A stretch of DNA of 64,000 bases from the human T2T-CHM13v2.0 reference genome, Homo sapiens. The stretch lies in the NCBI RefSeq assembly GCF_009914755.1, contig NC_060933.1. One strand, written 5' to 3'. The notes under the pieces are model-generated. The model was not told the origin of the DNA and searched no databases. It worked only from the letters and a program-made list of their open reading frames with translations. The position numbers were made by a program, and so were the translations under genes. Positions 33,274 through 50,077 of the stretch are shown one piece after another; within the stretch, counting starts at the first letter, position 1, and every line of letters starts with the position of its first letter.

Positions 33274-33390
33274 GCTACCTCATCATTCACATGGTACAGA
33301 GCCTATGTGGCATGGCAATCATGTACAGCCTGGTGCTACCCATCGTCCAAACCAGGGCCTGGAAATGCTGCAAGGGCTGGGCATTGGGAT
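33274..33390 (+). pseudogene. STRA6LP: STRA6LP exon H (117 nt; 118 needed) carrying the 1-nt deletion
   Basis: Acceptor cactcctag, donor gtaagt. It starts in frame (YLIIHMVQSLCGMAIMYSLVLPIV), but the homologous continuation NQGLEMLQGLGIG is in another frame after ~33350. The next exon needs phase 2 and this one ends in phase 1. Confidence 0.9.
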
Positions 33391-34459
33391 GTAAGTGCTG
33401 GGCGGGTATCCTGTCATTGACATGTTCTGAGAGCTGGGGTCCCCCCAACTGCTATGTGGACCCATGGTCTTGGCCCTGACCCAGAGATGGGCCATGATAG
33501 TAACTCATGGTGGGGGGAAACAGCGTTCACAAAAGGCTGCCTCTCACACCATTCCACAATGCCCTCACAACCATGTATGGGGTGGGGGATACATATGTCC
33601 ATTTTCCAGCTGGGAAAATTGAGGTTTAGGAAAGTAAAATGAGAGGCAAGACAGTATGATGGAAGGAAGCAGGGAATCCTGGCAAAGCTTTTGGATCTGC
33701 TGTGTGACCTGGGGTAAGTTATTCCACTTCTCTGCACCTCAGTTTACATATCTGGAAGACAAAGTAATGTTGGCTTCATTGAGCATTTAGTATGCATCTT
33801 TTCTCATAATAGCCTATGAACTTGGTGCTTGTGTTAACCTTCCATTTTGCAGACCAGGGAACAGAGGCACAGAGAGACTGAGCGTTTCCTCCAAGCAGGG
33901 GGAGGACTCAGGATTGGGAGCTGGGCAATCTGAAACCAAAGCCTCCTTTTAGCCACTGCCTCTCATTGCCACTCCAGGGGATGTCAACACAGCATGCAGT
34001 GCTCTCTGGGGCCCCTCCCTGCTCTGAGCTTCTTGATTCCATACTTGCCTTGAACCACCTGTGAGTTGGGGGCAGAGCCTGTCCTGTCCACTCTCTTGTG
34101 GTCTTCTCAGGAACTTCCAAGAACTGCATTCCATTTTTTAATTCCCAACCTGTTAAACTGCTCACCCAGCTGCCACCCCTGATGAAAGGGACATCAGTGA
34201 AATCCTGGAGTAATGGTCTGTGATCTGGAGCTAGAAGACCTAACCATGTGGTCTTGGGAAGGTCACCTCCCCTTTGTAAGCCTCAGTTTTCTCCTCTGCA
34301 CAATGGGCGTGGGAATGCCTTGTAAGCGTAAAGCATGGAACTCACATTACCATTGTCCTGCCGGGTGGTCAACCTGTCTCCCCTCTCTCACTGGGCATCA
34401 GAGAAGGATCTGGCAGAAGGGAAAAGGCTGCCTCAGGATGGCCCCACCCTGTGTTTCAG

Positions 34460-34579
34460 CCTTACAATATCCATCGTTGTGGGTCTCATGATCCTGCAGA
34501 TGTGTATCGCTGCCAGCTTCTTCCTACAGCCAAAGCTGGGCACGGCTGACAAGCAGAAGCCCCTGGCTCTCAACAACAG
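34460..34579 (+). pseudogene. STRA6LP: STRA6LP exon I (120 nt) [39 protein letters not shown](R)
   Basis: Acceptor gtgtttcag, donor gtgaca; symmetric phase 2 to 2. The frameshifted frame stops at TGA 34489-34491. Confidence 0.9.
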
Positions 34580-35850
34580 GTGACAGTGAAGGAGGGAATG
34601 AGGGAATTGTAGGCCTTTGGCTTCAGCCATCTCTGGGTCCTTCCCTGTCCCCCATGACAGATTCCTGGGCAGGCTCTACACTCTGAGAGGGTGAGGTACA
34701 GTGGGTCAGTGGGGGGCTCTGGAGCTGGACTGCCGGGGTCCAGATCCTGGCTCTACCCCTTAGGAGCCATGTGACATGTGGGAGCTTACTCAACATCTAT
34801 GAACCTCAGTTTCCCCATTTACAAATAACTGTGCATACCTCAAAGAGGCATTGTGAGGATGAACTGTGTTAAAATATGAACTTAGAACAATAGTGCTCAG
34901 CACGTGGAAATCCTTTCTAATTCATTCATTCAAAGCCATCCATTCATTGGGGGAACAACATGGGCATGAGGGTAAAGAAATAATCCCAACGCAATCTGCC
35001 TGTGAGAAGCTCAGTCCACTGGAACAGACAACAGGCACATAAACAACAAGGACAGAGGATGCCAGGGAGTGCAAAAGGAATACAAGAGAAACCCGGAGGA
35101 GGAGAGGCGAGGGTGGTTAATGCCACTGCAGATGGGACTCTGGAGCTGAGGTCAGCAGAATGGTAGGATTTCTACAGGCAGAGAAGATGAGAGGGTATGG
35201 CCGGCAGCCAACACCGCAAGGACAAAGGCAGGAAGCCACAAAAGGTCAGGATGTGTTAGAAGAGTGAGAATCGCAAATGGTTGCCATGCAGTGGACTTAG
35301 TGAGTGACAGGAAGGGGACACAAAGTGACAAGACCACACCCCTGGGGGCAGTGAGGGGGCTGAAACTCAGGATGCAAAGTTTGGGCTTTATTCCAGAGGC
35401 AACAGGAAACCACATGATCAGGCGGTCATTTGGGAAATTTCCTTTGGAAGACTTTGGAACAGCTGCAGCTAGGAATAGGTCCCTCGTGCAACAGACAGTG
35501 GGGAAGCCCCACCCTCTGCCATAATCACTGACCCAGCTGCAGCCCTGTGAAATTCCTTATCATGCAGGAAGCCTCAAACTCCAAGGATCGCATGAAACAA
35601 TGACTGTCCCCACTGACATACATTCTTCACTGTGCTCAGTGGCCCCCACACTGTACCTGAGCCATTCCTCACACCAGTGCTGTGAGGTGAGGGCAATCAG
35701 CTCCCCTTTATGGCACGAGGTCACAAAGCTTTGAGCCTGGACCTGTAGGATTTGACCCTGGGTCTGGGGGACTCCAGAGCCTACCTGCCTAGCAACCTTG
35801 CTCTACTGAAAGGTTGAAAGGTGGTGCCTTGGGCTGGCTTCTGTTTGCAG

Positions 35851-36014
35851 GAAAGCGTTCCACAACTTCAACTACTTTCTGTTCTTCTACAACGTGCTGC
35901 TGGGCCTGGGTGCCTGCCTTTCCAGGCTGCTCATCAGTTGCCTCCTCGGCATGTGGCTGATTGCCCGCATCGACAGGACCATCATGCAGAGTGGCTATGA
36001 GGGAGCAGACATGG
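35851..36014 (+). pseudogene. STRA6LP: STRA6LP exon J (164 nt) [54 protein letters not shown]
   Basis: Acceptor ctgtttgcag, donor gtaagt; phase 2 to 1. Confidence 0.92.
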
Positions 36015-47590: not shown

Positions 47591-49680
47591 CATCCAATCA
47601 GTTGGTTAAATAACTTTTTTTCTGGCTAGTCACAGGTCAGATGGTTCAAGACTTGAATTACAGGGTCTAGATTCATATCCTAGATCTTCCTATCTTGGAG
47701 ATCTTGGCCAAGTCACTGACTCTGAATTTCAGTTTCTTAATCAGTAAAATGGGTTACTTAAGGCACCCCTCTCATAGTCACTACAGGCATTAAATCTTCT
47801 CATTAAATATTTGCTCTTGTGGTGGTCCTCATTGCTCTGCTTTGTCTGGACTATGCAGAAGACAGACAATAGCCTGGGATAGAGGAAGGAAAAGGATGGG
47901 GTCAAGAGACATTTTCAAAGTTAAGAGTGAGAGGGAAAAGATCAAAGATGATGCTGAGCTACAAGAAAAAGATCCAGAGGCCCTGGTGTCATTCTTTCCG
48001 TTCCCTATCTCTGGCTTTTTGCCCGTATCTAAACACAGGAGGTGGACTAACCAGATGATCTCTAACTGGTTAGTCTTTCGCTATGATATTATCAGGTTGG
48101 GAGGAGAATGGAAATGCCATCCAAAAGGCAAACACGAATTTCCACGTTTGATGCAAACTCAAACACAGTCTCAAAAACTTGGAAGTTAAGGGAGGTAAAT
48201 TCTCAGTGCTGGGATTATGGGTTATTTTTACTTTCTCCATTGAAGTTTTTCATTTTTTTTTAATTTTTGACAATAAATATGGAGTTTAATCAAAACAAAA
48301 TCCCATACTTCACATGTCCATGCCTGCTATTTATAGCCATATAATTTTTAAAAAGAAAGAAACCCCTAAATTACAGATGTGCCTGGAACCAGAACCCAGA
48401 AAGCATCTGGGTAGGGAAAATAGTTTCTAGTGTTCAAGGCCAAAGCCAGTAGGGCCTCCTTGGATGGGAAAGAGATATGAGACTGCAAGTAATTCCTGGA
48501 CATTACCTATTTGTTATTGTGTTTTCATCCCTTCCCTCAGTCACCTACACGTTTTCTTTTTCCAGCTAAAATGAATCTAATCTTTGTTACAGTACTTCAC
48601 CTTGTTAATAAAACCCAGGACTGAAGAATGAGAATAAAAGGGTTTTATACTCACCATTTCTTAATTTCTGATTCTAGTCTGGACAGAACAATCACTCATT
48701 CTAGAAAATTGGCATAGGGAGCATTTATTAGCAGTTGTAACATATCACTGCCAAAGGGAGGGATTCTGTAAGGCGGCACTGGGTGTCTCATATGTATGGG
48801 AAACCCGAGGCCACGTTCAGTGCCAACCACAAGCATTTTCATCTCTGGCCAGGCAAGCCTTGATCCCTGAATTTTGAGCTCTCAACCTCTTTTAAAATGA
48901 GAAAGAGATGGTTTCTTCCAGAGTCTTTCAGCTTCTAACTTACAGGCAAACACTACCGTATGCTGTCCCCCAGCAGAGATTGGTTTTAACCAAGGCAAAT
49001 AAGTTAGGATGGACTTTGTTGACCGTGATGGCTCAGTGCTACATCTCATATATCCTACCACCTTTCAGAACATTTAATAGTGCTGCTCCTGGCAGCCCTG
49101 GGGTTGTAGTCCTTGTAGAGAGGAGGAACTGGCATTGAAAGAAATAGTTGAGTTTCACTACGCCACGTGGGGCGCTCCCATTGCTAAGAGCAATCTCCCC
49201 TCCCTGGGAAGAAAAGCGTGGGCGGGGCCGGGGCAGTCCCTCCCCTCCGCGTTGCCTTGGAGACCATGGGCGTCCAGCTGCAGTTGTCGCTGGACCGGCC
49301 CTGGCTGCCTCGAGAGGTGCTTTCTGCAGGCGGGGACGCGGCCAGGCCGGACGCAAGGCCTCCCTCCAATCTACCGGGCTCAGGGGGACGGCCAGGGGCT
49401 GCTCAGTCTACTTGGCGGGCTAGGGAGGGGGATGGCAGAGGCTGGTTGGGTCTTCTCAGCACACAGTAGGCGCCTAATTAGCGTGACCTGAATCAGGTTA
49501 CTCTCTCCCTCCAATTCTCCTCCCTGTGTCCCATGGAGGGTGGATTAGGGTCCCGGATGCGAGTTCTGCGCCGCATTAGAGTTCCAGTCCCAACCGACAC
49601 CTTGAGCGCCGTTAACTTTTCCCCGAAGAGCATGGCAGAGTGAAGCACAAGCAATAATCCTGTATTATTCGCGTTCCCAG

Positions 49681-49751
49681 AGTCCCTTCGGATTTGCGCC
49701 ATGCGCGGCGGGGAGAACCGGCCTCCTGCTCGAGTTCAGAGCTCATCTGAG
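49681..49751 (+). CDS. CCDC180: CCDC180 upstream/alternative exon with in-frame ATG 49701 ([17 protein letters not shown])
   Basis: Acceptor gcgttcccag at 49680, donor gttagt at 49752; joins the 49928 exon in phase 0 without a stop. Confidence 0.65.
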
Positions 49752-49927
49752 GTTAGTTTCATCGTTTCGTTGAAAGTTAAAACCCTAAGTCGACGTTCCC
49801 CAGCCGCCTACCCCCCAGCAGAGAGTCCTTCCCCGGGGAGTCCTGCCCTGGGGTGCCGCCTCGAGGCCAGACGTCGTCCCGCCTGGACCTGAACCTGAGT
49901 TTGGGACGGGCGATTTCCCAACCTCAG

Positions 49928-50077
49928 GAATTGGAATTGAGACACCAAAGCCTAGACGCGTTTCCTGGACGACGGCTTCCCGGCAGGGGCATCCAGCCAG
50001 CGGCCAAGATGTCGTCAGTGGGGAAGGTGACCCAGGTTCCGAATGGGAAAGCCTACCAGCAGATCTTCCAGGCTGAG
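49928..50077 (+). CDS. CCDC180: CCDC180 exon containing ATG 50009 ([23 protein letters not shown])
   Basis: Acceptor caacctcag; gccaagATG has A at -3; donor gtagga. Confidence 0.9.

What the first reader, a model, noticed from the sequence alone, without database searches (positions are those of the whole stretch)
33305..50077. The pseudogenising frameshift recruits a new ATG, giving a stop-free STRA6L-CCDC180 fusion ORF
Seen in sequence: the 1-nt deletion in exon H puts ATG 33305, out of frame ancestrally, in frame with the downstream STRA6L sequence (MWHGNHVQPGATHRP-NQGLEMLQGLGIG). Exons I (120 nt, skippable), J and K stay open. The exon K donor (36895, phase 1) fits the acceptor at 49681: ...[35 protein letters not shown]...AAK-MSSVGK. 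This gives CCDC180 a 223-aa (with exon I) or 183-aa (without) N-terminal extension containing hydrophobic STRA6L helices. From memory, readthrough transcripts are annotated here (some as non-coding) and a long CCDC180/KIAA1529 isoform begins this way, so the transcript itself may not be new. Inference: a lineage-specific, possibly membrane-anchored variant of a ciliary coiled-coil protein built from a dead receptor. ATG 33305 has a weak context; in-frame ATG 33365 has G at -3.
Basis: partly seen in the sequence, partly recalled or inferred. Interest (0 to 1): 0.85.

Follow-up and report, generated by a model that had tools for sequence, protein, structure and literature searches.

The report
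Old STRA6LP-CCDC180 readthrough reading frame
The stop-free reading frame that joins a dead vitamin-A receptor gene to the ciliary gene CCDC180 is really there, but it is the old KIAA1529/C9orf174 protein model carried by RNAs now annotated as non-coding readthrough, so it is ordinary.

Summary
From ATG 33305 the spliced frame H-(I)-J-K-49681 runs without a stop into the CCDC180 coding sequence. It adds 183 aa without exon I and 223 aa with it. A net -1 shift in exon H is supported by Pfam spacing.

It is not new. RefSeq NR_036527.1 and NR_036528.1 carry the ORF as 1646 and 1840 aa. The 1646-aa ORF matches IPI00292836 'C9orf174' in MW, pI and GRAVY. It matches the '191 kDa' KIAA1529 protein. 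It also fits the numbering of the published S995C variant.

Translation looks unlikely. ATG 33305 sits at mRNA position 1007, behind 15 upstream ATGs. A 306-aa ORF overlaps it and stops at the H|J junction, with 38 of 50 junctions downstream, which makes the RNA an NMD candidate.

The in-frame join is a 1-in-3 event. It uses STRA6L's native frame, so the frameshift truncates a longer ORF and does not create the fusion.

In passing, STRA6L is split between 9p13 and 9q22, so the frameshift is not the only lesion.

The parts
18461..18589 (+). First STRA6L-derived exon of the 9q half (RBP_receptor profile 152-196). In the annotated RNAs it is spliced to SUGT1P4 exons that lie upstream of the window.
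33274..33390 (+). Exon H. Its 5' part is in the ancestral STRA6L frame (from 33276, profile 388-416). A net -1 shift lies before the exon end. It holds ATGs at 33291, 33312 and 33321 in the ancestral frame, and at 33305 and 33365 in the fusion frame.
33305..33307 (+). First ATG of the fusion frame after the in-frame stop at about 32547. Its context is weak (C at -3, T at +4). It sits at mRNA position 1007 in NR_036526-9.
34460..34579 (+). Exon I, a 120-nt cassette (profile 427-459) that is strongly hydrophobic. It is included in NR_036526.1 and skipped in NR_036527/8/9.
35851..36014 (+). Exon J (profile 461-514, 78 bits). It holds the last transmembrane-grade hydrophobic segment.
36749..36895 (+). 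Exon K (profile 516-567). Its phase-1 donor at 36895 is used either to exon L or to acceptor 49681.
37524..39218 (+). Exon L, the terminal exon of NR_036526.1. It holds the STRA6L C-terminus (profile 580-604) and resembles the calmodulin-binding CaMBP2 peptide of STRA6. The frame stops at about 37667. The readthrough RNAs skip it.
49100..50100 (+). CpG-island-like promoter and 5' region of CCDC180 itself (GC 0.61, CpG o/e 0.68).
49681..49751 (+). Acceptor inside CCDC180 exon 1. The readthrough RNAs use it, and so does CCDC180's own NM_001348010.4. It contains the in-frame ATG 49701 (G at -3), which gives a 1701-aa ORF in NM_020893.6.
49928..50077 (+). CCDC180 exon holding the RefSeq start codon at 50009 (1657-aa CDS).

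Best explanation
This is the longest ORF of a curated readthrough (conjoined) RNA family, not a new gene product.

How the RNA is made (shown by annotation and sequence): transcription starts at the SUGT1P4 pseudogene promoter and runs through the promoter-less 3' half of the dead retinol-receptor gene STRA6L. It skips STRA6L's terminal exon L. It splices from the donor of exon K (phase 1) to an acceptor at 49681 inside CCDC180's first exon.

Why the frame is open (shown): exons I-K are still read in STRA6L's native frame. The CCDC180 frame is open back to 49644 and has an in-frame ATG at 49701. The one-in-three phase match therefore yields a stop-free frame. The -1 shift in exon H only decides where that frame can start, at ATG 33305, because it cuts off the longer SUGT1P4-STRA6L frame.

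History (shown by numerical match to printed values): automatic longest-ORF calling made this the KIAA1529/C9orf174 reference protein of about 2009-2016, at 1646 aa and 191 kDa.

Likely fate (inferred): scanning ribosomes meet 15 earlier AUGs. These include a 306-aa ORF that overlaps ATG 33305 and ends in a TGA formed across the H|J junction, far upstream of the last junction. The RNAs are therefore NMD candidates and little or no fusion protein is made. CCDC180 protein comes from transcripts of its own CpG-island promoter.
For: - RefSeq NR_036527.1 and NR_036528.1 contain H-J-K-49681. NM_001348010.4 uses the same acceptor.
- ORF lengths from ATG 33305 are 1646 and 1840 aa, and both end at the normal CCDC180 stop.
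- In all four NR RNAs (4 of 4), ATG 33305 is at position 1007 with 15 upstream ATGs.
- The 306-aa upstream ORF consists of 43 aa from SUGT1P4 exons followed by STRA6L exons 18461 to H. Its stop TGA is at mRNA 1092-1094, across the H|J junction. 38 of 50 junctions lie more than 50 nt downstream of it.
- Pfam frames of exons H, I, J, K and L.
- One of 3 frames is open through 49681-50008.
- My 1646-aa ORF gives MW 191,097.5 with Biopython masses and 191,099.7 with ExPASy masses typed from recall, pI 5.74 and GRAVY -0.648. Table 1 of PMC5080335 prints 191,100.07, 5.74 and -0.648 for IPI00292836. None of the 13 other candidate ORFs I computed matches.
- PMC9352548 describes KIAA1529 as '191 kDa' and '6269 bp'. 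NR_036527.1 is 6348 nt.
- Residue 995 is Ser (TCC) only in the ORFs that start at 33305, which is 2 of the 6 ORFs tested. This fits the published S995C.
- There is no CpG-rich region at 31000-37000, where o/e is at most 0.30. No annotated regulatory element lies near exons F-H.
Against: - If initiation did occur at 33305 or 33365, the ORF ends at the normal CCDC180 stop, so that translation event would not itself trigger NMD.
- The junction is cDNA-supported, since the records are BestRefSeq.
- The IPI entry was listed among proteins recovered from a cell-surface preparation. The main text gives no isoform-specific peptide, and the supplements are closed.
- The STRA6L 3' half is strikingly intact, with one frameshift and no stop across exons 18461 to L. 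This could mean recent loss, or some constraint.
- I saw no transcript-level, Ribo-seq or peptide data.
- RefSeq's reason for the NR status is my inference from the ORF layout. I did not read it in a record.
Confidence: 0.8

Rival explanations
1. A real, possibly membrane-tethered, long CCDC180 isoform is translated from ATG 33305 or 33365. This would need leaky scanning or an unannotated internal start site. The exon J (and I) helices would act as a signal anchor.
For: - The ORF is intact to the normal stop.
- There is one hydrophobic segment without exon I (aa 38-69, KD19 max 2.03) and two regions with it. TMHMM gave 1 helix for IPI00292836.
- The fusion point after exon K lies just before the CaMBP2-like exon L, which in STRA6 binds cytosolic calmodulin. 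Native topology would therefore leave CCDC180 in the cytosol (inference).
- The IPI entry is listed in a plasma-membrane proteome.
Against: - There are 15 upstream ATGs, and 8 of them open ORFs that overlap 33305, including ATG 33291 only 14 nt upstream.
- ATG 33305 has a weak context. It is followed at 33312 by an out-of-frame ATG with G at -3 and G at +4.
- There is no promoter-like composition near exons F-K.
- CCDC180 (the FAP76 orthologue) sits on the C1 microtubule of the central apparatus, and its N-terminal domain contacts ANKMY1, GRK3 and CFAP99. A membrane anchor at that end would be hard to reconcile with this.
- The proteome listing is not isoform-specific.
Confidence: 0.07
2. The readthrough RNAs matter as RNA. 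Transcription from SUGT1P4 across the CCDC180 promoter, coupled to NMD, would tune CCDC180 output or act as lncRNA. The ORF would be irrelevant.
For: - The RNAs pass through CCDC180's CpG-island promoter.
- RefSeq types them as lncRNA.
- Several expression-signature papers list them as lncRNAs (search listings).
Against: No functional test was seen. The listings are correlative signatures, and I did not read those papers beyond the listing.
Confidence: 0.08
3. The readthrough RNAs serve as alternative mRNAs with a long leader for ordinary CCDC180 (1701 or 1657 aa). Ribosomes would re-initiate at ATG 49701 or 50009.
For: ATG 49701 (G at -3) and ATG 50009 (A at -3) are in frame and lie downstream of the upstream ORF's stop.
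Against: Re-initiation after a 306-aa ORF is inefficient (established knowledge). Further ATGs also lie in exons J-K.
Confidence: 0.05

Closest known systems
RefSeq SUGT1P4-STRA6LP-CCDC180 readthrough RNAs NR_036527.1 and NR_036528.1
   Same: They have the same exons H, J, K, 49681-49751 and 49928 onwards. The finding's ORF without exon I is their longest ORF, at 1646 and 1840 aa.
   Different: RefSeq types them as non-coding. No annotated readthrough RNA contains exon I, so the 223-aa extension has no annotated carrier. NR_036529.1 (H->49681) is out of frame and gives 51 aa.
Legacy KIAA1529 / C9orf174 / BDAG1 protein model (IPI00292836)
   Same: MW, pI and GRAVY equal those of the 1646-aa ORF from ATG 33305. 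The protein is quoted as 191 kDa. The S995C numbering fits only this start.
   Different: I never saw the sequence of the IPI entry. Identity is inferred from composition-derived numbers and one residue number.
Current CCDC180 models: NM_020893.6 (1657 aa from ATG 50009), and the 1701-aa ORF from ATG 49701
   Same: They share the reading frame from 49701 onward.
   Different: They start at CCDC180's own promoter and carry no STRA6L part. That the 1701-aa form is the UniProt canonical length is my recollection only.
STRA6 / RBPR2 (STRA6L) retinol-binding-protein receptors, Pfam PF14752
   Same: Exons I-K encode profile positions 427-567 in the native frame. The hydrophobic pattern parallels the matching exons of human STRA6.
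   Different: Only about a quarter of the receptor is present. The N-terminal 15 aa are out-of-frame sequence, and the CaMBP2-like exon L is replaced by CCDC180.

Membership tests
Readthrough (conjoined-gene) transcript | One RNA joins exons of two adjacent same-strand genes through canonical splice sites. | tested here: met
   The annotation rows and the AG/GT sites at 36895|49681. I did not see read-level support.
NMD-candidate non-coding RNA | The 5'-most substantial ORF ends more than 50 nt upstream of the last exon junction. | tested here: met
   The 306-aa ORF from the ATG at window -12080 ends at mRNA 1092-1094. 38 of 50 junctions lie more than 50 nt downstream. Actual decay was not tested.
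Protein-coding fusion (chimeric) gene | There is evidence that the fused frame is translated. | not testable with these tools
   No Ribo-seq or peptide data are reachable. There is only a non-isoform-specific proteome listing.
Protein-coding fusion (chimeric) gene | The start codon is reachable by scanning, with few or no upstream AUGs. | tested here: not met
   There are 15 upstream ATGs in each of the 4 annotated RNAs, and 8 of them open ORFs that overlap ATG 33305.
RBP_receptor (PF14752) | A match above the curated cut-off of 25 bits. | tested here: met
   Exon J scores 78.0 bits, exon K 37.3 and exon L 27.8. Exon I (22.4) and exon H in the ancestral frame (23.9) fall just below when scanned alone. 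All are found in the genome-wide scan.
RBP_receptor (PF14752) | A complete, uninterrupted receptor reading frame. | tested here: not met
   There is a net -1 shift in exon H. The exons for profile 42-134 lie about 71 Mb away on 9p and carry a stop.
Unitary pseudogene | No intact copy exists elsewhere in the genome. | tested here: inconclusive
   The whole-genome PF14752 scan found 25 matches: 12 in STRA6 on chr15, 9 in the window, and 4 others on chr9 (2 at 9p13, 1 downstream duplicate exon, 1 at E 4.8). The scan used a stricter first look, and closed regions are not shown.

The most novel reading that the evidence does not exclude
A hominoid- or human-specific long CCDC180 isoform is really made in some tissue, through leaky scanning or an unannotated start site inside STRA6LP. 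It would be tethered to a membrane by the surviving last helix or helices of the dead retinol receptor. The unusual intactness of the STRA6L 3' half, with one frameshift in about 470 codons, would reflect that use.
Probability: 0.05. Interest if true: 0.55.

Novelty: already known. Interest (0 to 1): 0.15.

Why it matters
The practical value is bookkeeping. Older literature quotes KIAA1529 as a 191-kDa protein, numbers a disease-associated variant as S995C, and counts a transmembrane helix. All of this rests on a fusion ORF that RefSeq no longer treats as coding. On the current NM_020893.6 CDS the same residue numbers 183 lower, which follows.

If the fusion were translated, it would be an example of a new protein N-terminus salvaged from a pseudogene. 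Nothing here supports that.

The side observation may be of more interest. The human RBPR2/STRA6L gene is physically split between the two arms of chromosome 9. This bears on why humans lack the second RBP4 receptor that is studied in mouse and zebrafish.

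Tried and rejected
- Orthologue comparison. I could not fetch a full-length STRA6L orthologue or any long CCDC180 protein. The search for homologous proteins accepts only stop-free references and returns proteins of 0.55-1.75 times the query length, and the exons here give at most 54 aa. 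I therefore made no such search (0 of 3 used). As a result, deletion versus another kind of -1 change, the exact base, and lineage specificity all remain open.
- PDB sequence searches. I searched with exons J, K and I. They found only chance matches to unrelated hydrophobic segments, with E from 0.15 to 1.1. They did not find STRA6, so they gave no mapping onto the solved structure. I used human STRA6 exons from chr15 and the CaMBP2 peptide printed in PMC7154012 instead.
- Pfam on exon H. In the fusion frame and in the third frame, 0 families matched. The tail NQGLEMLQGLGIG is therefore assigned to STRA6L by spacing and by a weak likeness to the STRA6 exon only.
- Pfam on two other frames. Frame 29552 and frame 23408 gave 0 families. 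Frame 29552 was not the frame used by the ORF.
- RFX X-box. A strict consensus (typed from recall) has no match in the CCDC180 promoter and 1 match elsewhere in the window, at 18716. I dropped this line.
- Rfam over 30000-52000 gave 0 matches. Tandem repeats there are only simple ones.
- Literature for pseudogenisation or a rearrangement of STRA6L. 'RBPR2'+'pseudogene' found 0 papers. 'LOC105376041' and three related phrases found 0 papers. In one search, none of the 15 listed papers contained STRA6L. In PMC7555810 and PMC2864566 the terms occur 0 times in the main text, and their supplements are closed and may list the gene. Alapatt et al. 2013 (PMC3543007) is not held. Reviews PMC8006376 and PMC8951293, and papers PMC9992173 and PMC7290320, were read as passages only. 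The passages I saw do not say that the human gene is a pseudogene.
- PMC4607824 lists TrEMBL B4E0R8 'LOC100499484' with 1 peptide. I could not see what that entry's sequence is.

Full report
**Observation.** I read exon H, then spliced the annotated exons by coordinates and translated them.
- ATG 33305 has C at -3 and T at +4. It opens a frame that runs through H (33274-33390), optional I (34460-34579, 120 nt), J (35851-36014), K (36749-36895), 49681-49751 and 49928-50077 into the RefSeq CCDC180 start at 50009, with no stop.
- All borders are AG/GT.
- The extension is 183 aa without exon I and 223 aa with it.
- ATG 33365 is in frame and has G at -3.

**The frameshift.** Pfam RBP_receptor (PF14752) matches the exons one by one.
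- Exon H read from 33276 covers profile positions 388-416. Exon I from 34461 covers 427-459, J 461-514, K 516-567 and L (from 37526) 580-604. The whole-genome scan agrees.
- From 33276 to the end of H, plus the single base 34460, there are 116 nt for 39 profile positions. That is one base short.
- The ancestral frame enters exon H from upstream, and the fusion frame leaves it. A net -1 change inside exon H is therefore supported.
- The matching exon of human STRA6 has the same layout, with a hydrophobic stretch and then a 14-residue tail, and the fusion-frame tail resembles it weakly.
- Pfam alone gives no match to exon H in the fusion frame.
- I had no orthologue, so the exact base and the kind of change are not shown.

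**What carries the ORF.** The annotation file lists four RNAs that start in SUGT1P4, 19.8 kb upstream of the window.
- NR_036526.1 has H-I-J-K-L and ends at 39218.
- NR_036527.1 and NR_036528.1 have H-J-K-49681.
- NR_036529.1 has H-49681.

I fetched the rest of the locus from the same reference and built the RNAs. From ATG 33305 the ORFs are as follows.

| RNA | ORF from ATG 33305 | End of ORF |
|---|---|---|
| NR_036526.1 | 220 aa | stop at about 37667 in exon L |
| NR_036527.1 | 1646 aa | normal CCDC180 stop |
| NR_036528.1 | 1840 aa | normal CCDC180 stop |
| NR_036529.1 | 51 aa | out of frame |

No annotated readthrough RNA contains exon I, so the 223-aa version has no annotated carrier.

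**It is the old KIAA1529/C9orf174 protein.**
- Table 1 of PMC5080335 (passages read) lists IPI00292836, 'Uncharacterized protein C9orf174', with MW 191,100.07, pI 5.74, 1 TMHMM helix and GRAVY -0.648.
- My 1646-aa ORF of NR_036527.1 from ATG 33305 gives 191,097.5 Da with Biopython masses, 191,099.7 Da with ExPASy masses typed from recall, pI 5.74 and GRAVY -0.648. None of the other 13 candidate ORFs I computed comes close.
- PMC9352548 (passage) describes KIAA1529 as 6269 bp and 191 kDa.
- PMC2714112 (passages) reports a variant as S995C in the KIAA1529 protein. Residue 995 is Ser (TCC) only in the ORFs that start at 33305, which is 2 of the 6 ORFs tested.
- PMC5199132 (passage) names LOC100499484-C9ORF174 as the non-coding RNA with the most exons, 51. 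That is the exon count of NR_036528.1.

**Why the frame is open.**
- Exons I, J and K are read in STRA6L's own frame, so their openness is inherited.
- The CCDC180 frame is open back to 49644, and it contains an in-frame ATG at 49701 (G at -3) that gives a 1701-aa ORF in NM_020893.6. RefSeq uses 50009, which gives 1657 aa.
- Only the 20 nt at 49681-49700 are newly read.
- Of the three frames through 49681-50008, one is open. The phase match of K's donor is therefore a 1-in-3 event.
- The same acceptor is used by CCDC180's own NM_001348010.4.
- Because the J-K frame is the native one, the K->49681 join was in frame before the exon H shift. The shift does not create the fusion.
- What the shift does is end a longer frame. 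That frame starts at an ATG in a SUGT1P4 exon (window -12080), reads 43 aa there, enters STRA6L at 18461 and runs to exon H. It totals 306 aa, and its TGA is formed across the H|J junction.

**Will it be translated?** This part is inference from the sequence layout.
- In each of the four RNAs, ATG 33305 is at position 1007, behind 15 ATGs.
- Eight of those ATGs open ORFs of 33 to 306 aa that overlap it, the last at 33291. Re-initiation therefore cannot deliver ribosomes to it.
- ATG 33305 is followed 7 nt later by an out-of-frame ATG with G at -3 and G at +4.
- The 306-aa ORF stops with 38 of 50 junctions more than 50 nt downstream, which is the textbook NMD configuration. I take this to be why RefSeq types the RNAs as non-coding, but I did not read RefSeq's remark.
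- There is no CpG-rich stretch between 31000 and 37000, where o/e is at most 0.30. No annotated regulatory element lies near exons F-H. CCDC180 has its own CpG-island-like promoter at 49100-50100, with GC 0.61 and o/e 0.68.
- Against my reading: a ribosome that did start at 33305 would end at the normal stop. The junction is cDNA-based. The IPI entry appears in a cell-surface proteome, though without isoform-specific evidence in the main text. Supplements are closed.

**Membrane anchoring.**
- Kyte-Doolittle windows of 19 residues reach 1.6 or more in one segment without exon I (aa 38-69, exon J, maximum 2.03). With exon I there are two regions (aa 18-53, maximum 2.49, and aa 78-109). This agrees with the single TMHMM helix printed for the IPI entry.
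- In both STRA6LP and human STRA6, the exon J equivalent is the last transmembrane-grade segment. The K and L equivalents are not hydrophobic.
- Exon L resembles the calmodulin-binding CaMBP2 peptide of STRA6 printed in PMC7154012 (passages). The fusion point would therefore be cytosolic if the native topology held. This is inference.
- CCDC180 is the orthologue of Chlamydomonas FAP76 (PMC6548120, passage). In mouse sperm it lies along the C1 microtubule of the central apparatus, and its N-terminal domain contacts ANKMY1, GRK3 and CFAP99 (PMC12297659, passages). A membrane anchor on that end does not fit that role.

**Surroundings: STRA6L is split.**
- The genome-wide PF14752 scan (25 matches, with a stricter first look) placed profile positions 42-93 and 99-134 at chr9:38,486,261-38,486,413 and 38,494,027-38,494,137 on the + strand. 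Positions 152-604 lie in the window.
- The two 9p hits coincide with exons of RefSeq lncRNA LOC105376041, which lies head-to-head with IGFBPL1.
- Four of its exons, once spliced, read in one frame with one in-frame stop. That frame joins phase-compatibly to window exon 18461.
- tblastn of the two 9p exon peptides against chr9:109,410,001-109,494,000 found nothing better than E 1.2. The halves are therefore complementary, not duplicated.
- The 3' half in the window has thus lost its promoter and about 136 codons, and it is transcribed from SUGT1P4 instead.
- The exon H shift is one of at least three lesions, and their order is unknown.
- That mouse has Igfbpl1, Stra6l and Ccdc180 side by side is my recollection only.
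- I found no paper on this.

**Verdict.** The ORF is real and correctly described, but it is already known. It is an inherited frame plus a one-in-three phase match on NMD-candidate readthrough RNAs. The functional reading is unsupported. Interest is low.

Noticed in passing
chr9:38480297-38494143 (loci L017, L018), outside the window; window 18461-18589: The 5' exons of STRA6L (RBP_receptor profile 42-134) lie on 9p13 next to IGFBPL1, annotated as lncRNA LOC105376041. They carry one in-frame stop. Their frame joins phase-compatibly to the first STRA6L exon in the window, about 71 Mb away on 9q, so the gene is split by a large rearrangement.
   Followed up: partly
chr9:109572576-109574657 (locus L020), about 80 kb downstream of the window end: There is an old partial duplicate of window 20452-21826, which includes STRA6L exon 21254-21365. 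It is 77% identical over 864 bp, has an open 42-codon exon copy, and lies between CCDC180 and TDRD7.
   Followed up: partly
window 49701-49703: An in-frame upstream ATG (G at -3, C at +4) in CCDC180 exon 1 would add 44 aa and give 1701 aa. RefSeq starts at 50009 and gives 1657 aa. A 3-codon upstream ORF starts at 49632.
   Followed up: partly
window 33390 | 35851-35852: The stop codon of the 306-aa SUGT1P4-STRA6L ORF is a TGA assembled across the H|J splice junction. It exists only when exon I is skipped. With exon I the ORF is 316 aa.
   Followed up: yes
window 37526-37666: Exon L of STRA6LP keeps a motif resembling the calmodulin-binding CaMBP2 helix of STRA6.
   Followed up: partly
window -12080 to 18589 (loci L009, L013 and the window): Three small SUGT1P4-derived exons supply an ATG and exactly 43 codons, which flow in frame into STRA6L exon 18461. 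This makes a second chimeric ORF on the same RNAs. A TrEMBL entry named LOC100499484 (B4E0R8) is cited in a serum proteome, but I could not see its sequence.
   Followed up: partly
window 18461-37667: Across all STRA6L-derived exons of the 9q half, about 470 codons, the only frame-breaking lesion seen is the -1 shift in exon H. That is few for a gene half without a promoter.
   Followed up: no
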